In this document: positions 20,520 to 45,680 of the stretch, piece by piece
Layout of the letters: the number at the start of each line of letters is the position of its first letter
Position numbering within the stretch: position 1 is the first letter of the stretch
NCBI GenBank assembly: GCA_020719165.1
Contig: DYQT01000001.1
Location: forward strand, 1 to 45,680
Reading direction: 5' to 3'
DNA from: Draconibacterium orientale
GTDB taxonomy: Bacteria > Bacteroidota > Bacteroidia > Bacteroidales > FEN-979
Length of the DNA stretch: 45,680 bases
Translations under genes and position numbers: made by a program
Notes under the pieces: model-generated
What the model was told of the DNA's origin: nothing
What the model saw: the letters and a program-made list of their open reading frames with translations, nothing else
Database searches by the model: none

Positions 20520-20527
20520 CAAACAAG

Positions 20528-23810: not shown

Positions 23811-23819
23811 AAATCCCAT

Positions 23820-24972: not shown

Positions 24973-27315
24973 ATGAGAATTTCAGTACTATTGGTTCTTT
25001 TAACGCTTTTCTCATCTTTTGCTTATACAACAGAGGTCACTGAAGTCCAGGGAAGGATGCATCATATCATGACAGTTGACTCCCTGAATGAACTCGGTGT
25101 AATTTCTATTGACAATAATCCCGAGAGTGCCAGATATTCAGCTAACCGGGCCTATGCGATGTCTGTTGAGATTAAATATACCAAGGGGCAGATTGATGCC
25201 TTATCGACATTATCAAAGTATTATCTTATCAAAGAAGATTATGCTAAAGCACTCGAATACTATTTTAAAACTACTGATCTGTGTGACCCTGATCGCGATT
25301 TTGAAACCCTGGTGCGCATTTATCAGCAGGTGGTGCGGTTTTTCATTGTAATTAAGGATTACGGCCTGGCAAAAAAGTATCTTGATATCATGTCTCGTTT
25401 AGCGCAAAAATCATCTGACCCAGCCACTCATTCACTCGTTTTCCTTTTTCATGCAAAATATTATTATGCAAAGGGCGACTATGATCTCACAATTCGAAAT
25501 CTTTACCTGTGCCTCCCCTTCTCTCAAAAATCAAAGGATCTGAATGAAATTGGCTATATTCATAAATATCTCGGGGATGTATTTGTACAAAAAAAGATGT
25601 TTGCTCAAGCTATTTTTGAATATCGGGGAGCCTTATCCTTTTTTTCGGCGATGCAAAACAATGCGGAAATTGCGATAGTGTACACCCGTCTGGCTCATAT
25701 TTATCAGGTACAGGATAACAGGAAATTAAACCTGCATTACAATTTAGCTGCCTTGAGAATTCGGGAGAAAAGCGGATCAACCTATTTTATTGCATCCTCT
25801 TGTCTAAATATAGGCGAAGCATACTGGTTTCTTGAAAAAAAGGACTCTGCCCGTTTTTACATTCAAAAATCACTTCAACTTGCAGAACAAATCAACAGAA
25901 CTGATCTTCTTGAAGTTATCTACGCGCAACTTTCCAATTTTGCAAAAGCGGAAAAAAGATACGCTGATGCATACAACTATTTCAAAAAAGCTGTTGGATA
26001 CAGAACCAAAGTGAACCATGACAGGAACCTGTCAGAAATTTTAATTCTTGAAGCGAATCGAACTATCAGGGAAAGTGAAGCACAAAATGATTTGCTAAAT
26101 CAGGAAATGCTCATTCAGGAGTTGGAAATCAAAAACCGACACATTCAGATGTTCTTATTTGAAGTGGCATTTATGATCATCCTGTCTGTCATTCTTTTTA
26201 TTGATGCCCTTGCCCGTAAAAATCGAAAAAAGAAAAACGAGTTTAAAGAGATGAACCTCAGGCTCAGCAATGAAATTGCCACCCGCATTGAGGCAAAGGG
26301 AAGACTTAACAGGAGCGAAGAATTACATCGGGTTCTGGCAGAAAATATTGTGGATGTTATTTCATTGCTCGACTCAGGGATGCACCGGATCTACATCAGC
26401 CCTTCCTGTGAAAAATTTTATGGATATACGGTGAAGGAGATACTTCAGATGAAGAGCCCGCTCGACCTGGTCGAACCCTCCTTTAAAATTTCAGTAAACC
26501 AGCGTCTTCTTGAAATGTTTCGCTCTAAAAATCCCACACGGTATATTTATAAGGTTATCAGAAAAGATAAAGCTGCCTTTTGGGCAGAAGCAAATATAAA
26601 TCCAATTCTGGATCCTGTATCACATGAGATCACCAGACTGATAACGGTTGTGCGCGATATTTCTGAACGGATGAAACATGAAGAGGAGTTGTCGGAAAAT
26701 GCAAGACAAAAAGAGTCCCTCTTTCGTGAAATCCACAATCGGGTGAAAAATAATTTTGCCATTCTGATCAGTCTCATGAACATGCAACGCGATCAGTCAG
26801 CAAACCATGAACTGAACCGATCATTAAGTGATTTGCAATTAAGGGTTCGAACCATGTCGCTGGTTCATGAACAACTTTACCAGTCACAGGAAATAAGCAC
26901 CATTCCATTTGATAACTACCTTAACAATCTCGCCTCGATCATTTCAAGTTCCTATAAAAACGACCGAATTCGTTTGCAAACCGAAATTTATCCCTGCAAT
27001 GTGGCTATTTCGATGGCTCTTCCCCTCGGATTAATCATCAATGAACTGATAACCAATGCCTACAAATATGCATTCCCTGACCAAAATACCGGGAATATCT
27101 GGATCAAACTTCTGCCGGAAGAAAAAGAGAGATTCTCCATATCTATTTGTGACGATGGCATCGGACTTCCGGATGGTTTTTCCATGAAATCAACAAAAAC
27201 CATGGGGTCACAAATTGTTGAGTTATTGGTCGCACAAATAGAGGCAAGTCTTGAAGTCTCCACAAAAGGAGGTACCTGCTTTCGGATCCTGTTTTCAACA
27301 GCACTATATATTTAA
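24973..27315 (+). CDS. Sensor histidine kinase: signal peptide, TPR region, transmembrane segment, PAS, HisKA_2 and HATPase_c
   Basis: The H-box is EIHNRVKNNFAILISLM (HisKA_2 type), the N-box is ELITNAYKYAF and the G-box is DDGIGLP. About 370 aa of TPR-like repeats precede the single transmembrane segment (MFLFEVAFMIILSVILFI). Confidence 0.85.
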   Translation: MRISVLLVLLTLFSSFAYTTEVTEVQGRMHHIMTVDSLNELGVISIDNNPESARYSANRAYAMSVEIKYTKGQIDALSTLSKYYLIKEDYAKALEYYFKTTDLCDPDRDFETLVRIYQQVVRFFIVIKDYGLAKKYLDIMSRLAQKSSDPATHSLVFLFHAKYYYAKGDYDLTIRNLYLCLPFSQKSKDLNEIGYIHKYLGDVFVQKKMFAQAIFEYRGALSFFSAMQNNAEIAIVYTRLAHIYQVQDNRKLNLHYNLAALRIREKSGSTYFIASSCLNIGEAYWFLEKKDSARFYIQKSLQLAEQINRTDLLEVIYAQLSNFAKAEKRYADAYNYFKKAVGYRTKVNHDRNLSEILILEANRTIRESEAQNDLLNQEMLIQELEIKNRHIQMFLFEVAFMIILSVILFIDALARKNRKKKNEFKEMNLRLSNEIATRIEAKGRLNRSEELHRVLAENIVDVISLLDSGMHRIYISPSCEKFYGYTVKEILQMKSPLDLVEPSFKISVNQRLLEMFRSKNPTRYIYKVIRKDKAAFWAEANINPILDPVSHEITRLITVVRDISERMKHEEELSENARQKESLFREIHNRVKNNFAILISLMNMQRDQSANHELNRSLSDLQLRVRTMSLVHEQLYQSQEISTIPFDNYLNNLASIISSSYKNDRIRLQTEIYPCNVAISMALPLGLIINELITNAYKYAFPDQNTGNIWIKLLPEEKERFSISICDDGIGLPDGFSMKSTKTMGSQIVELLVAQIEASLEVSTKGGTCFRILFSTALYI

Positions 27316-28419: not shown

Positions 28420-28792
28420 GGGGCTGACTGGTTTTGACAGCAGGGAAGTGGAATTGTAAGCATGCCGAGTGTTCGTGAGCAGGCCTCGTAAAAAGTCAGC
28501 TTACACAGCCATTAACTGGCGACAATTATTCTTACAGACTTGCTGCTTAATTTTAGAAATTAAGCGCGTCTTGTCTCCCGGAAAACCTCTCTCAACGGTG
28601 TTCCGAATGAGGCATCGCAAATGTTGAGATAACATGGTTATTGTTTCGCTAACTGTGTGAAATAACAGGAACTAAGGATCTGGTAGGTTTGCCACTGACC
28701 GGCCGGCTCCCGACAATTAACCAGCGGCTAAGCATGTAGAAAGCATTTTTGCTACTTGTTTGGACGAGGGTTCGAATCCCTCCAGCTCCACC
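28420..28792 (+). ncRNA. ssrA: tmRNA (transfer-messenger RNA)
   Basis: The 5' ggggctg pairs with the 3' cagctcc, followed by acc. The T-arm is gagggttcgaatccctc. An internal tag frame at 28518..28550 (ggc gac aat tat tct tac aga ctt gct gct taa) encodes GDNYSYRLAA. The stop codon lies in the hairpin gcttaattt/aaattaagc. Confidence 0.9.
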
Positions 28793-28804
28793 GGCAGAAT
28801 CAAT

Positions 28805-28871: not shown

Positions 28872-28879
28872 TAATTTTG
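28872..28879 (+). promoter_or_regulatory. Candidate -7 promoter box (TAnnTTTG) for the GT2/TMTC-like operon
   Basis: taattttg ends only 5 nt before the ATG at 28885, which would imply a leaderless or very short leader mRNA. This is weak evidence. Confidence 0.3.
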
Positions 28880-28884
28880 ACTTT

Positions 28885-29631
28885 ATGCTGTTAGGAAAAA
28901 AAATAATAGTTGTTCTTCCAGCCTACAATGCTGAAAAAACCATTGCACAAACCATTGCAGAAATCCCCCTCGACCTCGTTGATGAATATGTGGTTGTAGA
29001 TGATGCCAGTACCGATAACACCCTAAAGGTTGCCAACAACCTAAAGGTAAAAAATCTGATAAAACACGACAAAAACAGGGGCTACGGCGGTAACCAAAAA
29101 ACCTGTTATGATACAGCTCTGCAATTAGATGGCGATATCGTTATCATGTTGCATCCCGACTATCAATACACCCCAAAGCTCATCCCATCAATGGCGCATA
29201 TGATTGCCAGCGGCCTCTACCCGGTTGTCATTGCCTCTCGAATACTTGGTAAAGGTGCCTTGAAAGGAGGCATGCCAAAGTATAAATATATCTCAAACCG
29301 CCTGCTCACATGGGGACAAAATCTGCTGATAAACCAGAAATTATCTGAATATCACTCAGGTTACCGGGCCTTCTCCCGCGAAGTTCTTGAAACAGTTAAT
29401 TATCATGCAAACTCGGACGACTTTGTGTTCGATAACCAAATGCTGGCCCAAATTTTTATGGCTGGCTTCGAAATTGCAGAAATCACCTGCCCGACAAAAT
29501 ACTTCAAAGAGGCCTCCTCCATCAACCTGAGGCGAAGCATCAAATACGGACTAGGCGTACTGAAAACATCTTTTGGCTATTTCCTTCATAAACAAAGAAT
29601 TATTTCGCTTTCTTTGTACGAATCAAAATAG
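28885..29631 (+). CDS. Family 2 glycosyltransferase, Dpm1/ArnC/GtrB-like candidate polyprenyl-phosphate sugar synthase
   Basis: KIIVVLPAYNAEKTIAQTI, VVVDDASTDNT, NRGYGGNQKT and MLHPDYQY are present. It is ~248 aa with no obvious transmembrane segment. The ORF-track start at 28756 lies inside the tmRNA gene and is rejected in favour of the ATG at 28885. Confidence 0.75.
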   Translation: MLLGKKIIVVLPAYNAEKTIAQTIAEIPLDLVDEYVVVDDASTDNTLKVANNLKVKNLIKHDKNRGYGGNQKTCYDTALQLDGDIVIMLHPDYQYTPKLIPSMAHMIASGLYPVVIASRILGKGALKGGMPKYKYISNRLLTWGQNLLINQKLSEYHSGYRAFSREVLETVNYHANSDDFVFDNQMLAQIFMAGFEIAEITCPTKYFKEASSINLRRSIKYGLGVLKTSFGYFLHKQRIISLSLYESK

Positions 29632-29638
29632 ACTGCTT

Positions 29639-31705
29639 ATGTCCCAAAGGCAACATGGAGGATTGGGAAAAAAGCAAAATCCTCCTGCACCAAATTTTCA
29701 ACCAACGAAAAAAAATGATTCCGGCCATTCTGGTATATGGTCTGTTGTGTTAAAAAATCATCATGTTTCAGGATCACTCTTCATTATTTTACTAAGCCTG
29801 GGACTATATTTTAACACCATCTGGCATGATTACGCATTAGACGACAGAGCTGTTATCCAGGATAACCGATTCACCCAGCAGGGTTTCGCAGGAATTCCGC
29901 TACTGCTTCGAACTTTTTACTGGCAGGGTTTTTGGGACGACAACGCCGGATTATATCGTCCATTATCCATGATCACTTTTGCCATCGAATGGCAAATTTC
30001 TCCTGGGAACCCGCATCTAAGCCATGCGACAAATGTTATTTTATATGCAATTTCCGGATATTTATTATTTGTAGTGTTATCGCTGCTTTTATCAAAGTAC
30101 AACAAATTCCTTCCTTTTTTAATCTCGGTGCTGTACACAGCACATCCAATTCATACTGAAGTTGTTGCAAATATTAAAAGCCGGGATGAAATCCTCTGCT
30201 TTCTTTTGTTTCTGCTTACCCTCTTTTTCATTCTGCGTTACATCCGAAAAAAATCAATCCCCAGTCTGATTTTTTCTGTCATTTCCTATTTTCTGTGTCT
30301 CTTATCCAAGGAAAGTGCTGTGACATTTCTATTTATTTTTCCTGCTGTTCTGTATTTCTTTACGGAAGTTCCTTTTAAAAGCTATTTGCGGATCCTACTT
30401 CCGTTTGTGATCACTTTGATCGCCTACTTAATTCTGCGCTTGCTTATCCTTGATGCCATAACCACAACGAAAATATATACTTACCTCGATAATTCCCTGG
30501 TAAGCGCTCCAAATATTGGAATTCGTCTCGCCACCTCCATCTATATTCTTGGAAAATATCTTTGGCTTTTAATCATTCCGTTCCCCTTATCTTATGACTA
30601 CTCCTTTCTGGAAATACCTTTCCGGCAATGGACCGATTATCAAACCTTAATACCATTGGTTATTTATACTGGTGCCGGAATTTTTGCATGCTATAATATC
30701 CTCACCGGGAAAAAAGATTTGTTCTCCTTCGGCATTTTCTTTTTCTTTGTAACCATCGCCATCGTATCAAACGTTTTTTTTCTTATCGGCGCTACCATGG
30801 CAGAACGATTTCTCTACATCCCCTCGCTGGGTTTTTGTATGATTGCCGGAACACTGATTCTAAAGGTGTTCAAGGTGCCGTTATTTGTCCAAACCAATAC
30901 AAGTATTGCATCCCAGGTTCCTAAAAACAGACTATTGTGGTCACTCCTATTTGTCATATTGACCATCTTTTCTTATCTGGTAATCAACAGAAATAAAGAC
31001 TGGGAAAATTCTCTTATACTTTTTGAGAAGGATGTTGCTGCAACACCAGGCAGTTCGAGAACACATTATAATTTTGGGACGGTGGCGCTGGCCAGATACA
31101 ACCGGAATAATCCGGATACCGCAGCAAACAACAAGGCTCTTGCAACCGCGTTGGCAGAATTAACCCAATCACTGGCAATTGACCCTTATAGCCCTTTGGC
31201 CCTGATGAACATTGCCAACACCTACTACCTGCAGGGTAATTATCCACTTGCTATTGAAAAAGCAACGCAAAGTCTTGTTTACAATCCGGGAGATGCCAAA
31301 GCATTCAGCGTTTTAGGAAACGCCTTTTACCGCGTTCGGGCATATCCCCAGGCTGTTGAGACTTTACAAAAATCTATCCAGTTAAAATACTACACCTCTG
31401 AAACTTACAATTTTCTCGGAGGAGCATACGTGGGGCTTTCCAACCTGCCTGACGCCATATTGGCCTATCAAAAAGCAATAGAACTCGACAAAACTAACGT
31501 TGAATTGGTTTCTAATCTCGCCAGTGTTTACGGCATGTCAAAAAACTATCCGCAAGCCATTTATTATTTTAAAAAAGCAACTATTCTGAAACCGGATAAC
31601 CCGCAGTTTTATTTAATGATCAGCACTACTTTTATGAATATGGGCAAACAGGATAGCGCTTTATATTATGCTGATTTAGCTTCAAAAATTCAGACCAGGA
31701 GATAA
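29639..31705 (+). CDS. TMTC-like GT-C membrane glycosyltransferase candidate with C-terminal TPR repeats (paralogue 1)
   Basis: The first loop carries an acidic pair (YALDDRAVIQDN). The DUF1736-type motif is HPIHTEVVANIKSRDEIL. There are many hydrophobic spans and a ~220-aa TPR tail. The ATG at 29639 is 7 nt after the GT2 stop. The TTG start at 29573 is rejected. Confidence 0.7.
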   Translation: MSQRQHGGLGKKQNPPAPNFQPTKKNDSGHSGIWSVVLKNHHVSGSLFIILLSLGLYFNTIWHDYALDDRAVIQDNRFTQQGFAGIPLLLRTFYWQGFWDDNAGLYRPLSMITFAIEWQISPGNPHLSHATNVILYAISGYLLFVVLSLLLSKYNKFLPFLISVLYTAHPIHTEVVANIKSRDEILCFLLFLLTLFFILRYIRKKSIPSLIFSVISYFLCLLSKESAVTFLFIFPAVLYFFTEVPFKSYLRILLPFVITLIAYLILRLLILDAITTTKIYTYLDNSLVSAPNIGIRLATSIYILGKYLWLLIIPFPLSYDYSFLEIPFRQWTDYQTLIPLVIYTGAGIFACYNILTGKKDLFSFGIFFFFVTIAIVSNVFFLIGATMAERFLYIPSLGFCMIAGTLILKVFKVPLFVQTNTSIASQVPKNRLLWSLLFVILTIFSYLVINRNKDWENSLILFEKDVAATPGSSRTHYNFGTVALARYNRNNPDTAANNKALATALAELTQSLAIDPYSPLALMNIANTYYLQGNYPLAIEKATQSLVYNPGDAKAFSVLGNAFYRVRAYPQAVETLQKSIQLKYYTSETYNFLGGAYVGLSNLPDAILAYQKAIELDKTNVELVSNLASVYGMSKNYPQAIYYFKKATILKPDNPQFYLMISTTFMNMGKQDSALYYADLASKIQTRR

Positions 31706-31742
31706 TCAGAGAGCAAAATTGTTCATTAACAATACACACAAG

Positions 31743-33689
31743 ATGACAAGTGTCAAATCATTCCATGGATATCTTCCACATGCTATTTTAATTGCCTTTA
31801 CCTTCGTTTTATATGCCAACACCCTTTTTTACGATTATACCCTCGATGATCTGATCGTAATCAAAGACAATGCCTTTACAAAAAAAGGGATAGACGGGCT
31901 TAAGGAGATTTTTCAATATGATTCCTTTACCGGTTTCTTTGGAACTCAAAAAACATTGGTTGCCGGCGGCAGATACCGACCACTCTCCATTGCAACATTT
32001 GCAGTTGAATATACTATGTTCAATGGGTTCAACCCACTTTTCAGCCGCGTGGTCAACATCTTCCTTTATGGGATAACCGGAATGCTGATCCTGCTGATTT
32101 TTTCAAGATTCAACCTGCAGAAACCTGGCAGTAAATGGTATTATACGATCCCGTTTATCACGGCTATTCTTTTTATTGCTCACCCTGTCCATACAGAAGT
32201 TGTTGCAAATATCAAGGGAAGAGACGAAATTCTGGCCCTGCTTTTTTCGTTGATTTCTTTATGGTTTTTCCTGCTTTATCTTGACAAAAAGAAACAATAT
32301 CACATTGTCCTGTCGGCATTGAGTTTCTTCCTGGGCTTGCTCTCAAAAGAAAATGCCATCATGTTTCTTTTCATGATCCCGCTATCAGTATATTTTTTCA
32401 CAAAACACTCTGTTAAAAGAACGCTTCTCAGTACCGGCCCATTACTCATGGCTGCGATCCTCTTCATTTTTATCAGATTTTTGGTGCTGGGGTATCTGAA
32501 TTCACCAGAGTTACCGAAGGAGCTCCTTAACAACCCATTCCTGTTTGCAACGAACGGCCAGAAAATCGGTACAATTTTATACACATTGGGATTGTATGTT
32601 AAACTGTTGTTTTTCCCTTATCCGCTAACTCATGACTATTATCCTTATCATATTCCTTTGGTAGATTTCTCGGATGTCAGATCCCTGATACCATTAATAA
32701 TCTATCTCGCATTGATACTATATGCCATCGTGCAGTTTAAAAGAAAAGATCCGGTGTCGTTTGGCATTCTATTTTACATCAGCACCTTGTTTATTGTGTC
32801 AAACATCTTGTTCTCCGTCGGAACGTTCATGAATGAGCGTTTTATCTACATGCCATCCCTCGGATTTGTTTTCATTATTTCCTACCTCCTGGTAACTCTT
32901 TTATCAAAACGGATTAACACAAAAAGCTCCCTGAATGCAGCAATTCTGGTTGTTTTACTTATATTATTAATCCCACTTACAGTTAAAACCATTTCGCGGA
33001 ACCGTGCATGGAAAGATGATTTCACCCTTTTTACTACAGATGTTCAGGTCTCTGAAAACAGCTTGAAATGCAATACCTCGGCAGGTGGAAAGTATTTGGA
33101 AAAAGCCCAGGCAGACCAGTCGCCGGAAGAGAAAGAGCATGACTTTCAGTTGGCAATAAAGCACCTCGAGAAGGCCCTAAGCATTTATCCATATAACAAC
33201 AATAGCTTAATATTATTAGGCAATGCCCTTGTTTTTTATCATCAGGATTACAAAAAAGCCATAGAACAATACTTGAAAGTACTATCCTTCGATCGTTACG
33301 ACCGAAATGCATACAGCAATTTATTTAAAGTGCTAACCATGGTCGATGATGCAAAGGAGACCGGTTATAAATTGCATCTATTATTGGATCTGAATAAAAT
33401 AAACCCCGAAGTACCTGAAGTAAATTCTTTGCTGGGTAAATTATATGGCCAATACATGGGAAATCTTGATTCGGCAGCATTCTTTCTATTGAAAGCGACA
33501 AATTTGGCCCCCGACAATCCCGCTTCGTTCAAAGACCTTGGAATCGTGTATGGCTTACAAAAAGATTACCCCCGTGCATTACAGGCATTTCAGAGAGCAT
33601 TGAATCTTGAACCAAATGATCCTCAAACCAAACAAAATATTGAAATTACGTATGGTCTGATAGAACAAAATGCGAAAAAATCGAATTGA
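31743..33689 (+). CDS. TMTC-like GT-C membrane glycosyltransferase candidate with C-terminal TPR repeats (paralogue 2)
   Basis: It has YTLDDLIVIKDN, HPVHTEVVANIKGRDEIL, a polytopic N-terminal domain and a TPR tail. The ATG at 31743 is preferred over the TTG at 31719. Confidence 0.7.
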   Translation: MTSVKSFHGYLPHAILIAFTFVLYANTLFYDYTLDDLIVIKDNAFTKKGIDGLKEIFQYDSFTGFFGTQKTLVAGGRYRPLSIATFAVEYTMFNGFNPLFSRVVNIFLYGITGMLILLIFSRFNLQKPGSKWYYTIPFITAILFIAHPVHTEVVANIKGRDEILALLFSLISLWFFLLYLDKKKQYHIVLSALSFFLGLLSKENAIMFLFMIPLSVYFFTKHSVKRTLLSTGPLLMAAILFIFIRFLVLGYLNSPELPKELLNNPFLFATNGQKIGTILYTLGLYVKLLFFPYPLTHDYYPYHIPLVDFSDVRSLIPLIIYLALILYAIVQFKRKDPVSFGILFYISTLFIVSNILFSVGTFMNERFIYMPSLGFVFIISYLLVTLLSKRINTKSSLNAAILVVLLILLIPLTVKTISRNRAWKDDFTLFTTDVQVSENSLKCNTSAGGKYLEKAQADQSPEEKEHDFQLAIKHLEKALSIYPYNNNSLILLGNALVFYHQDYKKAIEQYLKVLSFDRYDRNAYSNLFKVLTMVDDAKETGYKLHLLLDLNKINPEVPEVNSLLGKLYGQYMGNLDSAAFFLLKATNLAPDNPASFKDLGIVYGLQKDYPRALQAFQRALNLEPNDPQTKQNIEITYGLIEQNAKKSN

Positions 33690-33747
33690 TTCAATGATTC
33701 GCAAAAATGATGATTGATACTTCAGATTAACAGCAAGTAAATATCCT

Positions 33748-35574
33748 ATGGCAGCAAAAAAGAAAGTGCAAAAAAAACAGGACCAATTCTGGAATTATAA
33801 AATTCTTCTTGTTCTTATATTCACAGGCATCTCCTATTATCCATCAATAAAAAACGGTTTTCTCAACTGGGACGACATAATTTATGTGATGAATAACGAC
33901 ATGATCAAAACGCTTTCGCTTGAAAATTTGACGAAAATGTTTTCGACCTACTACATGGGAAATTATCATCCTTTTATTATCCTGAGCTTCGCATTTGATT
34001 ATTCATTTTTTCAGCTCTTCCCAACCGGTTATCATGTTCACAATCTACTCCTTCACCTGATAAATACTTTTTTCGTATATGCCTTTATCTATGTTTTATT
34101 TAATAAAAACATTAACCTTGCTTTGATTGTTGCCGTTCTGTTCGCAATTCATCCGATGCATGTTGAATCAGTTGCATGGATTTCAGAACGAAAAGATCTT
34201 TTATATACGCTGTATTTCATCACAGCATTGATCTCCTATTTATACTATATCAATAAAAAGGAGGCAAAGTATCTCATTTTATCGGTACTCCTTTTTGTTT
34301 TTTCATTGCTGTCGAAAGCTCAGGCGGTTACCTTGCCATTGGTGCTGATTTTAATTGACTATTTAATCTCCCGGAAAATCAGCATGAAAACAATCATGGA
34401 GAAAATTCCGTTTTTCATTTTATCACTGGTTTTCGGGATTGTTGCAATTTATGCTCAAAAAGCGGACAACTCAATCAATCCAAACAGCATCTCTGTATTG
34501 CACAGCTTATTCTATGCGCAATACAGCATCTGGGTGTATCTATTTAAATTAGTCCTGCCGATCAATCAAACCTGTCTTTATGAATATCCTGTTGATTTAA
34601 ATGGACAACCTCCCTTTTACATTTTTTTCTCCCCTTTGATCATCCTTTTAATTGGGTTTTTCATTTTCAAAACCTGGAAAAAGTGGAACATCGGAACTTT
34701 TGGCATTTTATTTTTTCTGGCAACCATTTTCCCGGTTCTTCAGTTTCTCCCGGTCGGACAGGCTGTTGTCGCCGAACGTTATACATACATCCCCTATATC
34801 GGACTTTTCATACTGCTTGGTTCACTGTTTTTAAGTATCCGGAACAGAGCCGGTAAACCTGCCACCAGGATGCTCTATACTTACGGTGGCTTCGTAATTC
34901 TGGCCCTGTTTGCCTTGACTACCTTTAACCGATCGAAAGTTTGGTACGACAGTGTTAGTTTATGGTCTGATGTGATCGAAAAAAACCCAAAATCGATTAC
35001 TGCCCATGTGAACAGGGGATATATGTATAATCAATATAAGGAATATGACAAGGCGATCAGAGATTGTAACGAAGGGATTAAACTTGACTCTAATTATTTT
35101 AAGTTTTATGTAAACAGGGCTGTTTCATATCGGAATATGGGGCAATATGACGTTGCCCTTGCCGACTTCTCGAAGGCTTTGTTGAAAAATCCGAAAGATT
35201 ATAGCACATACCTCGACAGAGGCATCCTCTATACCGACCGGTTTATGAAATATGACCAGGGAATTGCTGATTTTAAAATTTATCTCACACACCGGGCCGA
35301 TGATGTAAATGGCTATCATAACATGGCTGTTGCCTACTTTAAAAAGCAAAGTTATGACAGCGCTGTAATTTATTGTGATCTTGCTCTTGAAAAATCTCCT
35401 GAGTTGGCCGGGCCATACTATATTAAAGCATTGGTCAGTGATGCGGCAGGAGATTTTTCTAGTGCATTTTCCTTTGGCTCAAAAGCAAGACAACTTGGAT
35501 ACACCATCGATGAAACTCTCTTGCAAAACTGGCAGCAAAAAGCTGGAATTCCCAAAGTGACATTAACCCCTTAA
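33748..35574 (+). CDS. TMTC-like GT-C membrane glycosyltransferase candidate with C-terminal TPR repeats (paralogue 3, most divergent)
   Basis: It has LNWDDIIYVMNN, HPMHVESVAWISERKDLL, a polytopic N-terminal domain and a TPR tail (NRGYMYNQYKEYDKAIRDCNEGIKLD...). Confidence 0.7.
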   Translation: MAAKKKVQKKQDQFWNYKILLVLIFTGISYYPSIKNGFLNWDDIIYVMNNDMIKTLSLENLTKMFSTYYMGNYHPFIILSFAFDYSFFQLFPTGYHVHNLLLHLINTFFVYAFIYVLFNKNINLALIVAVLFAIHPMHVESVAWISERKDLLYTLYFITALISYLYYINKKEAKYLILSVLLFVFSLLSKAQAVTLPLVLILIDYLISRKISMKTIMEKIPFFILSLVFGIVAIYAQKADNSINPNSISVLHSLFYAQYSIWVYLFKLVLPINQTCLYEYPVDLNGQPPFYIFFSPLIILLIGFFIFKTWKKWNIGTFGILFFLATIFPVLQFLPVGQAVVAERYTYIPYIGLFILLGSLFLSIRNRAGKPATRMLYTYGGFVILALFALTTFNRSKVWYDSVSLWSDVIEKNPKSITAHVNRGYMYNQYKEYDKAIRDCNEGIKLDSNYFKFYVNRAVSYRNMGQYDVALADFSKALLKNPKDYSTYLDRGILYTDRFMKYDQGIADFKIYLTHRADDVNGYHNMAVAYFKKQSYDSAVIYCDLALEKSPELAGPYYIKALVSDAAGDFSSAFSFGSKARQLGYTIDETLLQNWQQKAGIPKVTLTP

Positions 35575-37511
35575 TGCTTATCCGGGCGACTACCCGTGAG
35601 GCTTTTAACACGCTCCTTATCCCCAAGATTGGAAAGCGTGACAATCAGATTGTTTACAATGTTTGGATCATTTGGGTCTATTTTATATCCTTTTTCAAGG
35701 TATAATGCTGATTTTTTGTAATCTCCCTTCATGGCATAAACAATACCAAGGGCACTTAAACATTCCACCCTGTTGCTATCAAAAACATAGGCCCGGTTTA
35801 AATTCACAAGGGCAGAGTCAATGTTGTTCAATTGCTTTCCGAAAACGAATGCTTTCTTATAATAGGGATCATACCTTTCGCCGGCAATGCTCAGCAATTC
35901 GTTATAATACTGAATTTTCATTTGCGGAGGAACAAGTTGCTCAACTGCAATAAGATAATTGGCATATGCTTTTACATAGCCTTGGTTCATCTTCAATGTT
36001 TCAGCGTACATGCTGATCGCCCTTTCGAATTGCCGATCATTAAAATAAGCATTTCCCAGAAGAAAGGTTTCTGTTGTCGACCTGTTTAATTTTGCCGCCT
36101 GCTCGAGATATTCGATTGCAAGTTTAACATATTTCTTAACCTTTTGGGTATCCTTTTCCGTTTCAAGCCGGGTAAGTAATTCCTGCCCTGCAAACCGCGT
36201 TATGATTGCGCTGTTTTTCGAAATCTGAACATCGGTTGTGTATAAAGTGAAATTATCTTTCCAGTCGAAATTGCGCGAAATCGTTTTGATGCCAAGCAGC
36301 AAAAGCAGTGGCACGAAGAAATAAACCGCGGCATTTTGAAGTTTAAATTTTGCCATAGCCGCTAAAATGAGCCAGACAATGGCTAAAATGAATCCGACCG
36401 AGGGTATAAAAGCAAACCTTTCTCCCAAAAACGGCCCGATTGAAAAAAGCAAATTCGACACCGGCAGCAAGGCAACCAGATAAAAAAGAAACCCATACCC
36501 AGCGATGTTCTTACGATAGGTAAAAAAAACAGCTCCAACGGTCAGCCCAAGGTACAAGACAATTGGGAGAATGGCCTTCCAGCTTGACAATCCGTTATAT
36601 GCAATATAAAACGGATAATAATCAATGGTTAAATTGATGGGCAGCAACAGCAATTTCAGATACAATCCCAAGGTGTAAAATGTTGTACCGTAGCGTTCCG
36701 AAAATCCATTGGCATACATATATGCATTGCTGAGAATGTTATCAGGCATCGAAGGTTTCGTACTCCATCCAAGTACACTCTGGCGAAGCAGCATGAATAA
36801 TATAAATCCTCCAGCCAAACCGATGGAGGTTGCGAAAATTACTTTGCGGGAATTTTTCCTGGTCTTAAAGCAAAAAATCGAAAGTGGAATGAGCACCAAA
36901 AGCGGGGCTGAACTTTCTTTCGACAGGAGTGACAGAAAGAAAAACAGTCCGGCGAAAACAACGTCTCTGATTTTTGATCTTTCGGCATATTTCAACGAGA
37001 AATTCCACGAAAGGAGCCCGAACAAAAGAGCCATCAACTCATCTCTGCCTTTAATATTCGCAACCACCTCGGTATGTATGGGGTGAACTGCAAAAATCAA
37101 TGTTGACATCAATGACAAACTCAAAAAATAATCCTGAAATCTGGAAAAGACCAGTTTATCGTGAAACAATGTGGTGAATACTTTCAATAATAGCATACAT
37201 ATCAAACCAAACAGAATGACATTAATAAGATGGCTGACATGGGGATTGCCTCCTGAGTATTCATGCTCAATGCTAAAAGTAATTAAGGACAATGGCCGAT
37301 AGCGCCCACCCCTGAAAAGATTTTTCTGTCCTGTAAATCCAAAGAAACTATCATTCAGAAGGTGCCCCGGGATCCCTTGCAACCCTTGTTTGGTAAACTT
37401 GTTATCCTGAATAACGCTGTAATCGTCGTAGGCATATTTATTGGGTATTGTGTTAATATAAACCAGAGCCCCAAAAAGGAAAACGACAATGTAAATGGAT
37501 TTAATCTTCAT
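35571..37511 (-). CDS. TMTC-like GT-C membrane glycosyltransferase candidate with C-terminal TPR repeats (paralogue 4, convergent)
   Basis: It has YAYDDYSVIQDN, HPIHTEVVANIKGRDELM, a polytopic N-terminal domain and a TPR tail. Its stop codon overlaps the stop of paralogue 3 within the tetranucleotide ttaa (35571..35574). Confidence 0.7.
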   Translation of the reverse strand: MKIKSIYIVVFLFGALVYINTIPNKYAYDDYSVIQDNKFTKQGLQGIPGHLLNDSFFGFTGQKNLFRGGRYRPLSLITFSIEHEYSGGNPHVSHLINVILFGLICMLLLKVFTTLFHDKLVFSRFQDYFLSLSLMSTLIFAVHPIHTEVVANIKGRDELMALLFGLLSWNFSLKYAERSKIRDVVFAGLFFFLSLLSKESSAPLLVLIPLSIFCFKTRKNSRKVIFATSIGLAGGFILFMLLRQSVLGWSTKPSMPDNILSNAYMYANGFSERYGTTFYTLGLYLKLLLLPINLTIDYYPFYIAYNGLSSWKAILPIVLYLGLTVGAVFFTYRKNIAGYGFLFYLVALLPVSNLLFSIGPFLGERFAFIPSVGFILAIVWLILAAMAKFKLQNAAVYFFVPLLLLLGIKTISRNFDWKDNFTLYTTDVQISKNSAIITRFAGQELLTRLETEKDTQKVKKYVKLAIEYLEQAAKLNRSTTETFLLGNAYFNDRQFERAISMYAETLKMNQGYVKAYANYLIAVEQLVPPQMKIQYYNELLSIAGERYDPYYKKAFVFGKQLNNIDSALVNLNRAYVFDSNRVECLSALGIVYAMKGDYKKSALYLEKGYKIDPNDPNIVNNLIVTLSNLGDKERVKSLTGSRPDKH

Positions 37512-38121: not shown

Positions 38122-38140
38122 TTTGCAAATGATTTGCAAA
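38122..38140. promoter_or_regulatory. Pair of palindromic TTTGCAAA octamers spaced 11 bp apart, a candidate regulator binding site
   Basis: tttgcaaa occurs at 38122..38129 and 38133..38140, 46-64 nt upstream of the ATG at 38186. A third copy lies at 37996..38003. Confidence 0.3.
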
Positions 38141-38185
38141 AATCAGACAATTTGTGTTAGTTTTTTCACAATTAATTCAGATGCC

Positions 38186-41426: not shown

Positions 41427-42086
41427 TTACTGAATCAGCAGGCCCTGTTCCACTGATATTTTTATCAATTGAGCAGTATTCCGTAATCCCATCTTTTTAA
41501 GGATGTTGGTTTTATGTCGTTCAACTGTTTTTTCACTGATAAAATGCTTTTCAGCTATTTCCCTGGTAACCAATCCATTCGCCAATGCTCTGATAATTTC
41601 AATTTCCCGCGCAGTAAGCAAATGCATGTTGCTGTTCAGGTCTGATTCAATTTGGGTATAGTTATGCAATATTACATCAGAACAGTGCTTGTCTAAAAAC
41701 GTCTTCCCCATATAAACCGCCCGAATCGCTTCAAAAAGCTCCTCCGGCAAACAATTTTTTGACAGGAAACCTTTTGCCCCATGACGCAGCATGGCTTTGA
41801 TGTATTGTGGATGACTGTACATCGACAATGCAATAACCCGGATCCAGGGCATTTTGCCATCGATGATCTTGCTTACCTCAATGCCACTCATTTTTGGCAT
41901 GTTGATGTCAATAATAATTACATCGGGTTTTTTGTCTTCAAGAAGCTGCAGTAGCAACAATCCATTCGGAGCAGTTCCGATTACTTCAAAGCCAGGTTCC
42001 GCGTTAATCAGGGTAACTAAAGAATGTAAAATTAGCCCCTGATCATCGGCAACCATAATCGTTATTTTCCCAGTTTCGCTCATCAT
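41427..42086 (-). CDS. NarL/FixJ (LuxR-type HTH) response regulator
   Basis: The REC domain has an acidic pocket (VADDQ) and a phospho-acceptor context (DVIIIDINMP). The C-terminal LuxR HTH is LTAREIEIIRALANGLVTREIAEKHFISEKTVERHKTNILKK. Confidence 0.85.
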   Translation of the reverse strand: MMSETGKITIMVADDQGLILHSLVTLINAEPGFEVIGTAPNGLLLLQLLEDKKPDVIIIDINMPKMSGIEVSKIIDGKMPWIRVIALSMYSHPQYIKAMLRHGAKGFLSKNCLPEELFEAIRAVYMGKTFLDKHCSDVILHNYTQIESDLNSNMHLLTAREIEIIRALANGLVTREIAEKHFISEKTVERHKTNILKKMGLRNTAQLIKISVEQGLLIQ

Positions 42087-42117: not shown

Positions 42118-42520
42118 CAGGAATCTGGTCAACATTTGACAATAATCTCAAATTTATCTTATTTTCGCTAATATATATTTGGTACGAGGCTCAGAATAGA
42201 GTATTTTCGTTAAATATTTGTCAAACTCAAAATCATCTGCTTTTACTTACCAGTCATGGATTACAGAACAGTTAGGGTGCTACTCTAACACGACGTGCCA
42301 GAACGGTTTATTAATTAAGCACTTGGATTTTGTGTTATTTTGTAACCAATTATTAAAAACTTGAATACACCAAAAATCCAATGAACAAAACAACGAACAT
42401 GAGAATTTACATCAAACTGGAACCGCCTCCCTAGATTTTCCGCACAAGAATTTATACATGAATGTTATATTAACCGTTCTTTATAAAGTTAGCTAATCAG
42501 TTTTAATTAAGTATTAATCT

Positions 42521-45500: not shown

Positions 45501-45680
45501 GAACGATCACCACAACGGTTTCCGGCGGAACACCCGGTGTTTCCCCAGCTCCTTTGTATACTTACCTGTGGAACAATATGATGACCACTGCAGGAATCAA
45601 TAGTCTGACAGCCGGCACCTACACGGTTACTGTGATGGATGCCCACAACTGTCCGATGATCGAAACCTTCACCGTGAACG
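42521..45680 (+). CDS. Giant SprB-repeat surface protein (gliding-adhesin-like), 5' partial and open at the window end
   Basis: I translated it by hand from the ATG at 42521. The signal peptide is MKTFYNKNPFMRNLKLPALIFFLLALSYSVKAQ. At least 12 repeats of ~75-82 aa follow the pattern CxGGxxGxIxxxVxGGxxPYxYxW....GLxAGTYTVTVTDxxxC. No stop occurs before 45680, which is why it is absent from the ORF track. Confidence 0.85.
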   Translation, partial: MKTFYNKNPFMRNLKLPALIFFLLALSYSVKAQYADPRYVCYGDPIYLFCGGAPGCEAVGASYSWSSSTGSWTSDQKNPVILEGSVGYMTGKFFLSIMYPPGLMYSGVASVTVRGAIVITGTPTPLSCDGGNNGAITITVTGGNQPYSSYIWNNGATTPNISGLSAGTYTVVVTDATPLTPCTATQTFEVTQPIAMVITSTSSGNVLCNGGNQGYVNISVSGGTAPFSYAWSNGTTAQNASNLTAGTYTVTVTDAVPCTKTNTFLITEPTGMAFISSTVPVSCNGGNDGSISITVSGGAPGYTYAWSNGGSSTSTLATLTSGTYTVTVTDGTGICTKTDSWFVTQPTAMVLTPAVTNISCGGLTDGSIAITLSGGSPSYNYKWSNNHTASGTTDMIANLSAGTYTVTVTDAHSCPLVQSWNITSPTALSLSLVDKSNTLCSTSSNGWIEVVAAGGTGSYGYKWNNSQLTARATGLIAGTYTVTVTDGGGCTKTDTYSITSPSALSLLASMKTNVKCYDDANGAIDITVGGGTGAYTYSWYPLADPSTQGGGTAHVHDLTEGTYTVTVTDINNCPLIESWIITQPEKLSGNGVVTDVTCFGGSNGTATITGIGGTPPYKYLWRTGSTEQLITGLSVGYYNVTITDANSCPNYTGQYVAEPSKITILGGSTKVTCYGGGDGTITTTVSGGTPGVSPAPLYTYLWNNMMTTAGINSLTAGTYTVTVMDAHNCPMIETFTVNQNPDITISLVGSSNALCNTSKDGWIEVIASGGITGYSYSWNNGQLAAKATGLAAGTYTVTVTDGGVCTKTGTFSITSPPALSFLATASSNVKCYDDANGSIDITVGGGTGAYTYSWYPLPDPASQGGGTAHVHDLGEGTYSVTVTDINNCPLIESWNITQPEKLSGNGVVTDVTCFGGSNGTATITGIGGTPPYQYLWRTGSTEQLITGLSVGYYNVTITDANSCPNYTGQYVAEPSKITILGGSTKVTCYGGGDGTITTTVSGGTPGVSPAPLYTYLWNNMMTTAGINSLTAGTYTVTVMDAHNCPMIETFTVN
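43790..45680 (+). repeat. Tandem 945-bp (315 aa, four SprB repeats) super-repeat inside the SprB-like gene, with two copies in the window
   Basis: The offset is exactly 945 bp at several anchors: tgc at 43838 and 44783, tgaaatgtta at 44061 and 45006, and ttcaactaaa at 44521 and 45466. 44501..44734 is identical to 45446..45679. The repeat phase is arbitrary. Confidence 0.9.

What the first reader, a model, noticed from the sequence alone, without database searches (positions are those of the whole stretch)
28872..37511. A Dpm1/ArnC-like GT2 followed by four paralogous TMTC-like TPR GT-C proteins: a candidate undescribed periplasmic glycosylation system
Seen in the sequence:
- A ~248-aa soluble-looking GT2 (28885..29631) ends 7 nt before the first of three co-directional ORFs. 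A fourth ORF is convergent. The four ORFs are 608-688 aa and share one architecture: ~400 aa of multi-span membrane domain plus a ~200-250-aa C-terminal TPR block.
- All four keep an acidic pair just after the first hydrophobic span: YALDDRAVIQDN, YTLDDLIVIKDN, LNWDDIIYVMNN and YAYDDYSVIQDN.
- All four keep the same motif: HPIHTEVVANIKSRDEIL, HPVHTEVVANIKGRDEIL, HPMHVESVAWISERKDLL and HPIHTEVVANIKGRDELM.

Established knowledge:
- This HP-x-H-T-E-x-V motif is characteristic of the DUF1736 region of metazoan TMTC1-4. Those are ER GT-C O-mannosyltransferases that use Dol-P-Man and act on cadherin-type beta-sandwich domains through luminal TPRs.
- A first-loop acidic pair is the catalytic signature of GT-C enzymes such as PMT and ArnT.
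- A GT2 polyprenyl-phosphate-sugar synthase encoded next to a GT-C transferase is the known ArnC/ArnT and Ppm1/Pmt logic.

Inference:
- This is a lipid-carrier-dependent periplasmic glycosylation module with four acceptor-specialised, probably all active, transferases.
- It would be distinct from the general Bacteroidota O-glycosylation pathway.
- To my knowledge no bacterial TMTC-like protein has an assigned sugar or acceptor.
Basis: partly seen in the sequence, partly recalled or inferred. Interest (0 to 1): 0.8.

Follow-up and report, generated by a model that had tools for sequence, protein, structure and literature searches.

The report
Bacterial TMTC-like glycosyltransferase gene array
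An uncultured Bacteroidota bacterium carries a small sugar-carrier-charging enzyme gene followed by four related membrane glycosyltransferase genes that resemble the animal enzymes which put mannose on cadherins; this looks like an uncharacterised periplasmic glycosylation module, built on a known principle, whose sugar and targets are still unknown.

Summary
The five genes, their lengths, the 7-nt gap and the quoted motifs are all at the stated coordinates.

- **GT2.** It is homologous to polyprenyl-phosphate sugar synthases (Pyrococcus Dol-P-Man synthase E 6e-11; E. coli ArnC, hhalign 96.8%). Across Bacteroidota it sits next to polytopic membrane proteins about five times more often than expected. 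Thirteen of 80 loci carry a clear ArnT homologue there.
- **Four paralogues.** All have a multi-span N-terminal domain plus C-terminal TPRs. A and B pass Pfam's TMTC_DUF1736 threshold. All keep the TMTC DD, YRP/YHP and ERxxY motifs. The AlphaFold model of A (pLDDT 92.9) has 11 membrane helices, which places the DD loop and the TPRs in the periplasm.
- **Linkage.** GT2 followed by 3-6 paralogues recurs in every relative checked with GT2 at 76% identity or more. Most distant TMTC-like genes are solitary.

Corrections:
- HPxHTE lies after TM3, not in the DUF1736 loop.
- Paralogue C belongs to a separate conserved subfamily that lacks the metal-binding Glu.
- No flippase gene is present.

Sugar and acceptor remain unknown. 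SprB/PKD-repeat T9SS adhesins are a weak acceptor lead. I rate this a new variant of a known kind, interest about 0.6.

The parts
28885..29631 (+). GT2 family glycosyltransferase, 248 aa, with no transmembrane segment. Predicted polyprenyl-phosphate monosaccharide synthase of the Dpm1/ArnC/GtrB type.
   Evidence: - Pfam Glycos_transf_2 at 1e-20.
- Best NCBIfam hits are all polyprenyl-P sugar synthases, sub-threshold.
- Profile against PDB: P. furiosus DPMS 5mlz, E 6e-11 over residues 4-173.
- hhalign against E. coli ArnC: 96.8%.
- AF2 pLDDT 86. Foldseek hits are GpgS, ArnC, DPMS and GtrB, all at TM 0.65-0.73.
- No hydrophobic span; the C-terminal helix is amphipathic.
29639..31705 (+). Paralogue A, 688 aa. 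TMTC-like GT-C with 11 predicted membrane helices and a C-terminal TPR domain.
   Evidence: - Pfam TMTC_DUF1736 at 30.7 bits (cutoff 27), residues 280-345, plus many TPR families.
- AF2 pLDDT 92.9, pTM 0.89.
- Motifs DD68-69, YRP, HPIHTE, SKES, DY and ERFLY are present.
- Homologues are 688 aa.
31743..33689 (+). Paralogue B, 648 aa (656 aa from the TTG at 31719). TMTC-like GT-C plus TPR.
   Evidence: - Pfam TMTC_DUF1736 at 29.5 bits and PMT_2 at 28.0 bits, both above their cutoffs, plus TPRs.
- Motifs are conserved.
33748..35574 (+). Paralogue C, 608 aa. A divergent TPR GT-C of a separate conserved subfamily.
   Evidence: - Only TPR families hit in Pfam. Its 78%-identical orthologue P0381 carries PMT_2 among its precomputed Pfam hits.
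- Subfamily motifs WDD, YHP, HPMHVESVAW, SKAQAVT, YEY and ERYTYIPY are conserved in orthologues from L083 and L134.
- 24-28% identical to A, B and D in the membrane domain.
35571..37511 (-). Paralogue D, 646 aa. TMTC-like GT-C plus TPR, convergent with C.
   Evidence: - PMT_2 sub-threshold (21.6 bits) and TPRs.
- All TMTC motifs are kept, including AVHPIHTEVVAN and SKES.
- 43% identical to B in the membrane domain.
- The convergent orientation is the same in relatives.
28420..28793 (+). tmRNA (ssrA) gene. It marks the upstream boundary of the module and is not part of its function.
   Evidence: ARAGORN. Rfam RF00023 at 159 bits.
24973..27315 (+). TPR-PAS histidine kinase. A conserved upstream neighbour and possible regulator; this role is an inference only.
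   Evidence: Pfam HisKA_2, PAS and HATPase_c. Found at the same position in L001, L002, L167 and L168.
41427..42086 (-). LuxR-type response regulator. A conserved downstream neighbour of the array.
   Evidence: Pfam Response_reg plus GerE. Orthologues directly follow the array in L001, L002, L134, L167 and L168.
42518..45679 (+). SprB-repeat giant surface protein that runs off the end of the window. A conserved neighbour and speculative acceptor candidate.
   Evidence: Pfam SprB repeat, 12 copies, E 5e-112. Orthologues follow the response regulator in L001 (cut at the locus end), L002, L134 and L168.

Best explanation
This is a lipid-carrier-dependent periplasmic glycosylation module.
1. The soluble or peripheral GT2 transfers one sugar from a nucleotide sugar to undecaprenyl phosphate at the cytoplasmic face of the inner membrane.
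2. The lipid-linked sugar is flipped by a flippase that is not encoded here.
3. The four TPR-bearing GT-C enzymes each use it in the periplasm. Catalysis uses the first-loop Asp-Asp. The carrier phosphate is bound by the conserved Lys (SK[E/A]) and Arg (ERxxY).
4. The C-terminal TPR domains most likely select protein acceptors. Their greater divergence suggests each paralogue has different targets.

Shown here: the homologies, the motifs, the predicted topology and the conserved gene linkage. Inferred: the lipid carrier, the flipping step, transfer of a single sugar, protein acceptors and paralogue specialisation. The sugar cannot be read from the sequence.
For: **GT2**
- Pfam GT2.
- All best NCBIfam hits are polyprenyl-P sugar synthases.
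- DPMS at E 6e-11. ArnC by hhalign at 96.8%.

**Coupling of GT2 to GT-C enzymes**
- In 80 genomes of other Bacteroidota species, polytopic 430-800-aa ORFs fill 24 of 141 slots directly flanking this GT2 (17%), against 2-5% in most more distant bins (9% in the 3-4 kb bin).
- Thirteen of these are ArnT homologues (hhalign 98.9%, E 1.4e-17 against E. coli ArnT).
- One relative has a PF02366 PMT gene directly upstream of the GT2.

**Array linkage**
- A 73%-identical relative has the identical GT2-A-B-C-D order.
- GT2 plus 3-6 paralogues occurs in L001, L002, L083, L134, L167, L168 and L169.
- Twenty-five contig lengths are shared between the GT2 and C-type hit lists, ten of them 7.7 kb or shorter.

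**GT-C character**
- DUF1736 and PMT_2 hits above threshold.
- TMTC motifs are present (PMC7801869).
- hhalign to the ArnT-like profile aligns DD with WDE and SKES with TKGP, though weakly (E 4e-4, 35%).

**Topology**
- The model has 11 helices.
- K/R residues concentrate at the N-terminus and in the predicted cytoplasmic loops.

**Specialisation**
- TPR domains are 15-27% identical, against 24-43% for the membrane domains.
Against: - No flippase gene (GtrA or ArnE/F type) is in the window.
- The GT2 has no membrane anchor. Its DxD motif reads H-P-D, invariant across homologues.
- Its top structural matches are soluble glucosyl-3-phosphoglycerate synthases, marginally ahead of ArnC, DPMS and GtrB.
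- The fold search of A returned only TPR proteins, so GT-C fold similarity was not shown structurally. The HMM search of PDB sequences found nothing for the membrane domain.
- Most TMTC-like genes elsewhere are not next to this GT2.
- Nothing here shows that the acceptor is a protein. The GT2's partners in other lineages (ArnT-like plus PAP2) point to lipid A.
Confidence: 0.55

Rival explanations
1. The donor logic is the same, but the four GT-C enzymes decorate non-protein envelope glycans. These could be lipid A or core, O-antigen, or capsular or exopolysaccharide, as with ArnT, GtrII-type or YfhO-type enzymes. The TPRs would dock onto envelope assembly machinery rather than select protein substrates.
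For: - In other Bacteroidota the same GT2 is adjacent to an ArnT homologue, often with a PAP2 phosphatase. This is a lipid-A-modification-like set.
- A Wzx-type flippase and further glycosyltransferases lie 5-8 kb upstream in the window.
Against: - The characterised GT-C enzymes with TPR or TPR-like luminal domains (TMTC1-4, TMEM260) are protein-specific O-mannosyltransferases (PMC7801869, PMC10214176).
- The ArnT-like partners elsewhere lack TPRs.
- Arrays of 3-6 paralogues with fast-diverging TPRs fit many protein targets better than one glycan.
Confidence: 0.25
2. The GT2 is not the donor synthase for these enzymes. It would be a conserved housekeeping GT-A enzyme acting on a soluble or other acceptor, for example a GpgS-like enzyme. 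Its position next to the array would be clade-specific synteny, and the TMTC-like enzymes would draw their lipid-linked sugar from elsewhere.
For: - The top Foldseek hits are glucosyl-3-phosphoglycerate synthases (TM 0.72).
- There is no TM helix, and the DxD motif is altered to HPD.
- The GT2 is 64-92% conserved phylum-wide, whereas its neighbours vary.
- Most TMTC-like genes are unlinked to it.
Against: - Sequence similarity to DPMS and ArnC extends through residue ~173-192. GpgS matches cover only the first 48-88 residues.
- There is about five-fold enrichment of polytopic GT-C-type neighbours, including ArnT and PMT family members.
- Soluble polyprenyl-P sugar synthases are known, for example human DPM1 and mycobacterial PpgS (my own knowledge).
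Confidence: 0.12
3. The four proteins are not active glycosyltransferases. They would be TPR membrane scaffolds or relics of a GT-C ancestor.
For: No activity data exist for any bacterial member. C lacks the M4 glutamate.
Against: - The catalytic DD, the phosphate-binding Lys and Arg, and HPxH are invariant or nearly so across 71-88 diverse homologues.
- C's variant motifs are themselves conserved among its orthologues. ArnT-type enzymes also lack that Glu (TKGP).
Confidence: 0.05

Closest known systems
Metazoan TMTC1-4 (CAZy GT105; Pfam TMTC_DUF1736). These are ER protein O-mannosyltransferases that act on cadherin EC domains.
   Same: - N-terminal multi-span GT-C domain followed by C-terminal TPRs on the non-cytoplasmic side.
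- DD in the first loop, YRP, HPxHTE after TM3, KE(S/T)xxT and ERxxY.
- A DUF1736 loop between TM7 and TM8.
- Eleven predicted TM helices.
- Four paralogues per genome, as in vertebrates.
(PMC7801869)
   Different: - Bacterial, acting in the periplasm, and presumably using undecaprenyl-P rather than dolichyl-P.
- The M5 motif DW reads DY.
- DUF1736 scores are marginal (about 30 bits, against E<1e-30 for the human proteins).
- C and D do not reach DUF1736.
- Sugar and acceptor are unknown.
- The genes are clustered with a GT2 synthase.
ArnC/ArnT (with the ArnE/F flippase) and the related LgmA/B and FlmF/FlmK lipid A glycosylation systems.
   Same: - A GT2 Und-P-sugar synthase is encoded next to a GT-C transferase.
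- The window's GT2 is homologous to ArnC.
- Orthologues of this GT2 sit next to genuine ArnT homologues in other Bacteroidota.
   Different: - The GT-C enzymes here carry TPR domains. They are only remotely similar to ArnT (hhalign 35% against the ArnT-like profile; no hit to E. coli ArnT alone).
- There are four transferases for one synthase.
- The cluster has no sugar-modifying enzymes and no flippase.
Streptococcal GtrB/PgtC2 and PgfS/PgfM1/PgfM2 protein O-glycosylation of Ser/Thr-rich regions (PMC12041528), and actinobacterial Ppm1/Pmt.
   Same: - A bacterial GT2 makes Und-P-hexose or Und-P-HexNAc.
- GT-C enzymes then transfer it to Ser/Thr of extracytoplasmic proteins.
- PgfS is among the GT2's NCBIfam hits.
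   Different: - Those GT-C enzymes lack TPR domains and belong to other GT-C families.
- They are from Gram-positive organisms.
- They have no paralogue arrays.
GtrA/GtrB/Gtr(type) three-component O-antigen glucosylation, and the pentofuranose three-component systems (PMC11127046).
   Same: Same synthase, flippase and GT-C logic. GtrB is a structural neighbour of the GT2.
   Different: - No GtrA-like flippase gene is present here.
- The acceptor in those systems is a polysaccharide.
- The GT-C lacks TPRs.

Membership tests
TMTC / GT105 (Pfam PF08409 TMTC_DUF1736) | Significant match to the DUF1736 loop model (TM7-TM8 loop) | tested here: inconclusive
   A scores 30.7 bits and B 29.5 bits, both just above the 27-bit gathering score. 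C and D give no hit at E<=0.01. Close homologues mostly carry PF08409 among their precomputed Pfam hits.
TMTC / GT105 (Pfam PF08409 TMTC_DUF1736) | Conserved motifs M1 (DD), M2 (..YRP), M3 (RxD/E after HPxHTE), M4 (KE[T/Q/S]xxT), M5 (DW) and M7 (ERxxY), as defined in PMC7801869 | tested here: met
   - A, B and D keep M1, M2, M3, M4 and M7, and have DY for M5.
- C keeps M1, M3 and M7, has YHP for M2, SKAQ for M4 (no Glu) and YEY for M5.
- The comparison is with motif strings printed in the paper, not with full human sequences.
TMTC / GT105 (Pfam PF08409 TMTC_DUF1736) | Eleven TM helices, N-terminus cytoplasmic, DD loop and C-terminal TPR domain on the non-cytoplasmic side | tested here: met
   - The AF2 model of A (pLDDT 92.9) has 11 long hydrophobic helices before the TPRs.
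- There are 6 K/R in the 42-residue N-terminus, and further K/R clusters at the predicted cytoplasmic loops.
- This is a heuristic. No dedicated topology predictor was available, and only A was modelled.
TMTC / GT105 (Pfam PF08409 TMTC_DUF1736) | C-terminal tetratricopeptide repeats | tested here: met
   All four have TPR_1 and TPR_2 hits, at E 2e-21 (A) to 5e-11 (D), in the last ~200 residues. The Foldseek top hits are TPR superhelices.
TMTC / GT105 (Pfam PF08409 TMTC_DUF1736) | GT-C fold of the membrane domain, similar to ArnT, PMT or TMEM260 structures | tested here: inconclusive
   - The Foldseek list of the full model showed only TPR proteins in the top 50.
- The HMM search against PDB sequences found nothing.
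- hhalign to the ArnT-like profile was weak (35%, E 4e-4) but aligned the catalytic residues.
- PMT_2 is above threshold only for B.
TMTC / GT105 (Pfam PF08409 TMTC_DUF1736) | Uses Dol-P-Man to O-mannosylate beta-sandwich (cadherin EC) domains | not testable with these tools
   Needs biochemistry or glycoproteomics. The only hint is weak enrichment of SprB/PKD-repeat T9SS proteins near TMTC-like genes.
Polyprenyl-phosphate glycosyltransferases (DPMS/Dpm1, GtrB, ArnC type GT2) | GT-A catalytic domain homologous to DPMS and ArnC, through the acceptor-side region | tested here: met
   - PF00535 at 1e-20.
- 5mlz DPMS at E 6e-11 over residues 4-173.
- E. coli ArnC by hhalign at 96.8% over residues 4-192.
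- All NCBIfam hits are far below the equivalog cutoffs, so it is not an orthologue of any named enzyme.
Polyprenyl-phosphate glycosyltransferases (DPMS/Dpm1, GtrB, ArnC type GT2) | DxD (DAD) metal-binding motif followed by Q | tested here: inconclusive
   The aligned motif is H90-P-D92-Y-Q94. The second Asp and the Gln are kept. The first Asp is His, invariant in 31 homologues.
Polyprenyl-phosphate glycosyltransferases (DPMS/Dpm1, GtrB, ArnC type GT2) | Membrane association through TM helices or amphipathic interface helices | tested here: inconclusive
   There is no TM segment (maximum 19-residue hydropathy 1.53, inside the core). The C-terminal helix 215-236 is strongly amphipathic and basic. 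Structural neighbours include soluble GpgS as well as ArnC, DPMS and GtrB.
Polyprenyl-phosphate glycosyltransferases (DPMS/Dpm1, GtrB, ArnC type GT2) | Genomic coupling to a GT-C consumer enzyme | tested here: met
   - Polytopic ORFs fill 24 of 141 flanking slots, against 2-5% in most more distant bins.
- ArnT homologues in 13 of 80 loci.
- TMTC-like genes in 6 of 80 loci.
- A PMT family gene in L169.
Three-component periplasmic glycosylation systems (synthase + flippase + GT-C) | A dedicated small flippase (GtrA, ArnE/F) encoded with the synthase and transferase | tested here: not met
   No such ORF lies between 28.8 and 37.5 kb. No GtrA or EamA/SMR-type family appears among the window's ORFs scanned with Pfam. 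The flippase, if any, is encoded elsewhere.

The most novel reading that the evidence does not exclude
Bacteroidota possess a TMTC-type, domain-specific protein O-glycosylation pathway. A phylum-wide GT2 would charge undecaprenyl phosphate with a monosaccharide. Expanding arrays of TPR GT-C paralogues would then modify the beta-sandwich repeats (SprB, PKD) of giant T9SS-secreted adhesins in the periplasm. This would be a prokaryotic counterpart, and possibly the evolutionary source, of the metazoan TMTC-cadherin O-mannosylation system.
Probability: 0.15. Interest if true: 0.85.

Novelty: new variant of a known kind. Interest (0 to 1): 0.6.

Why it matters
**An uncharacterised family.** TMTC-like TPR GT-C proteins form a very large bacterial family. 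A search of 1.84 billion cluster representatives found 13,713 at E<=1e-10. The held literature has no experimentally characterised bacterial member.

**What this locus and its relatives offer.**
- A candidate donor synthase, encoded directly upstream of the transferases.
- Natural variation in paralogue number, from 3 to 6.
- A recurring neighbour, the SprB-repeat adhesin, as a concrete acceptor hypothesis.

**A link to an open question.** Periplasmic glycosylation of T9SS cargo is reported in Cytophaga hutchinsonii, but the glycosylation system there is described as largely unknown (PMC11858162, PMC11611037).

**If the hypothesis holds.** It would reveal a second protein glycosylation route in Bacteroidota alongside the general O-glycosylation system. 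It would also give a tractable bacterial model for the TMTC enzymes that underlie human neurodevelopmental and hearing disorders.

Tried and rejected
- **Fold search of A.** Foldseek of the full-length model against the PDB returned only TPR proteins in the 50 rows shown. The model could not be truncated, so no GT-C ranking was obtained.
- **Sequence searches of PDB chains.** phmmer and a 71-sequence profile of the membrane domain found nothing relevant.
- **Profile against E. coli ArnT alone.** hhalign of the TMTC-like profile found no signal.
- **Unannotated polytopic GT2 neighbours.** L054, L072 and L080 were tested against the ArnT-like profile by hhalign with no significant link. Their GT-C status is unproven.
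- **Promoter and terminator scan.** The sigma-70 and terminator scan of 28.2-38.3 kb found no more than the shuffled expectation, and Bacteroidota promoters are not covered by it.
- **The 1099-aa downstream protein.** I guessed that it ends in a Fibrobacter-type paralogous domain. NCBIfam and Pfam did not confirm this. Tandem Repeats Finder sees no DNA-level repeat there.
- **Genomic island idea.** I considered that the cluster might be an island inserted at the tmRNA gene. I rejected this because the histidine kinase, gpsA, GT2, array and response regulator keep the same order in several relatives.
- **CHU_3842.** I checked whether this C. hutchinsonii glycosyltransferase was a TMTC-like enzyme. 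It is a PglA homologue.
- **SprB association.** It is significant only when close relatives are included: 8 of 86 against 0 of 74, p=0.008. Without them it is 5 of 80 against 0 of 74, p=0.059. With a broader giant-adhesin cluster it is 15 of 86 against 5 of 74, p=0.055. I treat it as a lead only.

Full report
**1. What is in the sequence**

| Gene | Coordinates | Strand | Length |
|---|---|---|---|
| GT2 | 28885-29631 | + | 248 aa |
| A | 29639-31705 | + | 688 aa |
| B | 31743-33689 (or TTG 31719) | + | 648 (656) aa |
| C | 33748-35574 | + | 608 aa |
| D | 35571-37511 | - | 646 aa |

- Seven nucleotides separate the GT2 stop from the ATG of A.
- A tmRNA gene lies at 28420-28793 (ARAGORN; Rfam 159 bits). 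It explains the spurious longer TTG ORF at 28756 and fixes the GT2 start at 28885. Homologues are also 248 aa.
- The four large proteins align over their whole length at 34%, 24% and 31% identity to A. The quoted DD-loop and HPxH(T/V)E motifs fall in register.
- All four have strong C-terminal TPR hits.

**2. The GT2**

Evidence for a polyprenyl-phosphate sugar synthase:
- Pfam gives Glycos_transf_2 at 1e-20.
- Its best NCBIfam matches are AglJ, haloarchaeal Dol-P-hexose transferase, PpgS, PgfS and ArnC. All are polyprenyl-phosphate sugar synthases, and all are far below the equivalog cutoffs.
- A profile of 31 homologues finds Pyrococcus Dol-P-Man synthase (5mlz) at E 6e-11 over residues 4-173.
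- hhalign against E. coli ArnC gives 96.8% probability, E 3e-10.

Points that remain ambiguous:
- The AF2 model (pLDDT 86) matches glucosyl-3-phosphoglycerate synthases, ArnC, DPMS and GtrB about equally well (TM 0.65-0.73). Fold alone does not separate a lipid-phosphate acceptor from a soluble one.
- The protein has no TM helix. Its C-terminal helix is basic and amphipathic.
- The DxD motif reads H-P-D-Y-Q, invariant in homologues.

**3. Comparative genomics of the GT2**

The enzyme is unusually conserved. It is 64-92% identical in hundreds of Bacteroidota and Chlorobiota species: at least 589 genome stretches matched, and only the best 80 were kept.

What lies next to it in those 80 loci:
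- Its neighbours vary, but polytopic 430-800-aa ORFs occupy 24 of 141 immediately flanking slots (17%). In most more distant bins the figure is 2-5% (9% in the 3-4 kb bin).
- Thirteen loci carry a ~555-aa PMT_2 protein. It is a clear ArnT homologue (hhalign 98.9%, E 1.4e-17 against E. coli ArnT). It is often accompanied by a PAP2 phosphatase.
- Six loci carry TMTC-like genes.
- About six carry unannotated polytopic proteins. I could not establish their GT-C status.
- One relative has a PF02366 PMT gene directly upstream.

This pattern is what one expects of a lipid-linked-sugar synthase that serves different periplasmic GT-C consumers in different lineages. It is the main argument against the GpgS-like rival.

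**4. The four TPR membrane proteins**

Family assignment:
- A and B pass the Pfam TMTC_DUF1736 gathering score (30.7 and 29.5 bits against 27).
- B also passes PMT_2. D is sub-threshold for PMT_2. C hits only TPRs.
- The DUF1736 match lies at residues 280-345 of A, not at HPIHTE (residues 169-176). In human TMTC3 the string AVHPIHT is at residues 128-134 and DUF1736 at 258-331 (PMC7801869).

Motifs, measured against the seven TMTC motifs of that paper:
- A, B and D keep DD, YRP, R-D-E, SKE(S/N), ERxxY, and DY in place of DW.
- C has WDD, YHP, HPMHVESVAW, SKAQ, YEY and ERYTYIPY.
- C-type orthologues in other loci share exactly these variants. C therefore represents a separate conserved subfamily and is not a decaying copy.
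- Sources name C-type proteins 'protein O-mannosyl-transferase' or 'glycosyltransferase family 39 protein'.

Structure and topology of A:
- The AF2 model is confident (pLDDT 92.9, pTM 0.89). It shows 11 long hydrophobic helices followed by a TPR solenoid.
- K/R residues concentrate in the N-terminus and the alternate short loops.
- Together these give an N-in, C-out topology with the DD loop and the TPRs in the periplasm.
- Structural confirmation of a GT-C fold failed for technical reasons, because TPR hits swamped the list. Sequence and profile links to solved GT-C structures are absent or weak.

**5. Is the linkage conserved?**

Within a clade it is:
- A relative with A at 73% identity has the same GT2-688-652-608-(646 convergent) order.
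- L001 and L002 have the GT2 plus three paralogues.
- L083 has six paralogues around the GT2, and L134 has the GT2 plus five.
- L167 has five, L168 four and L169 three.
- Twenty-five exact contig lengths are shared between the GT2 and C-type hit lists, ten of them 7.7 kb or shorter. This implies many further linked cases.
- The wider synteny recurs in L001, L002, L167 and L168: histidine kinase, gpsA, (tmRNA), GT2, array, LuxR-type response regulator, SprB-repeat giant protein.

Outside this clade it is not:
- Among 80 metagenomic TMTC-like loci, mostly 30-45% identical to A, only five carry the GT2 and eight have tandem paralogues.
- Single look-ups show solitary genes.
- Because nearly all Bacteroidota sampled carry the GT2 somewhere, unlinked transferases could still use its product. 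I could not test genome-level co-occurrence.

**6. Acceptor**

Nothing here identifies the acceptor. Three observations favour proteins:
- The only characterised GT-C enzymes with TPR-type luminal domains (TMTC1-4, TMEM260) are protein-specific (PMC7801869, PMC10214176).
- The TPR domains diverge faster than the catalytic domains, at 15-27% against 24-43% identity.
- Giant SprB/PKD-repeat proteins with T9SS C-terminal domains lie near TMTC-like genes.

The third point is statistically weak:

| Comparison | TMTC-containing loci | GT2-only loci | Fisher p |
|---|---|---|---|
| Strict SprB-like hits | 8/86 | 0/74 | 0.008 |
| Same, without close relatives | 5/80 | 0/74 | 0.059 |
| Broader giant-adhesin cluster | 15/86 | 5/74 | 0.055 |

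T9SS cargo are common in this phylum, so I treat this as a hypothesis. The rival of a glycan or lipid A acceptor is kept at about 0.25, because the same GT2 pairs with ArnT-like and PAP2 genes elsewhere.

**7. Comparison with what is known, and novelty**

- The logic matches ArnC/ArnT, GtrB/Gtr, Ppm1/Pmt and the streptococcal GtrB/PgtC2 and Pgf systems (PMC12041528, PMC11127046): a GT2 synthase, a flipping step, then a GT-C transferase.
- The transferases resemble TMTC in architecture and motifs. Membership is only marginal by the Pfam model, and is not met for C and D.
- Databases already label the family, so it is not unseen.
- The family is large: 39,804 representatives at E<=1e-3 and 13,713 at E<=1e-10.
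- 'DUF1736' occurs in a single paper of the library, which is about the human enzymes. No bacterial member with an assigned sugar or acceptor turned up.

I therefore file it as a new variant of a known kind. It is a bacterial, operon-encoded, multi-paralogue TPR GT-C module with its putative donor synthase.

**8. Verdict**

The mechanism is plausible and backed by several independent lines.
- Linkage is restricted to one clade.
- No flippase is encoded, and the sugar and acceptor are open.
- Interest 0.6.

Noticed in passing
window 28420-28793 (+): A complete tmRNA (ssrA) gene with tag peptide GDNYSYRLAA lies between gpsA and the GT2. The TTG ORF starting at 28756 is an artefact that reads through it.
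   Followed up: yes
window 38123-41422 (+): A 1099-aa protein with a signal-peptide-like N-terminus and nine tandem 86-87-aa repeats (WNWN.V.GA.GYKWNT...). It is 24% Ser+Thr and has no significant Pfam or NCBIfam family. It sits between paralogue D and the response regulator, but is absent from that position in relatives L168 and L002. It looks like an insertion into the conserved synteny.
   Followed up: partly
window 42518-45679 (+), runs off the window end: A giant protein with at least 12 SprB repeats (PF13573, E 5e-112). Orthologues occupy the same position after the array and response regulator in L001 (cut at the locus end), L002, L134 and L168.
   Followed up: partly
window 5657-13939 (-): A complete Bacteroides-aerotolerance-type (bat) operon: MoxR AAA ATPase, DUF58, DUF4381, BatA and BatB (VWA), TPR protein, BatD, and a TPR-SH3 protein.
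   Followed up: no
window 16827-24752: A small glycan or lipid biosynthesis cluster: a DUF7033 protein, KAS III-like enzyme, SDR, Wzx-type flippase (21281-22852, -), FkbM methyltransferase and a second GT2 (23820-24752, -). Parts of it are syntenic in L167 and L168. It could supply a flippase or a glycan acceptor, but this was not examined.
   Followed up: no
window 28885-29631, residues 88-95 of the GT2: The canonical DxD of DPMS, ArnC and GtrB is replaced by M-L-H-P-D-Y-Q-Y. This is invariant in 31 homologues spanning 72-92% identity. It is an unusual variant for a polyprenyl-phosphate sugar synthase.
   Followed up: partly
loci L005, L013, L016, L018, L019, L029, L031, L039, L045, L046, L058 (others in the same cluster): In Chitinophagaceae, Saprospiraceae, Bacteroidales and other lineages, the orthologous GT2 is directly adjacent to an ArnT homologue (~555 aa). 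A PAP2 phosphatase is often present too. This resembles a lipid A modification set that, to my knowledge, has not been described for Bacteroidota.
   Followed up: partly
L169:7664-9907 (+): A 747-aa PF02366 (PMT family) protein lies immediately upstream of the GT2 and three TMTC-like genes. A single locus thus combines two different GT-C families with one synthase.
   Followed up: no
L165 (P0046), L081 (P0053), L164 (P0026), L166 (P0092): Solitary TMTC-like genes in distant Bacteroidota lie next to T9SS or gliding genes. Neighbours include PorP/SprF and SprA, GldB and GldC with a CHU_C protein, and Por_Secre_tail proteins. This is anecdotal, and the background frequency of such genes is high.
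   Followed up: partly
window 2585-5452 (-): A 955-aa protein with a T9SS type A C-terminal sorting domain (Por_Secre_tail, E 7e-13). It confirms that the organism uses a type IX secretion system.
   Followed up: no
window 36709-37086 (+): A 125-aa TTG ORF lies antisense inside paralogue D. It is most likely not a gene.
   Followed up: no
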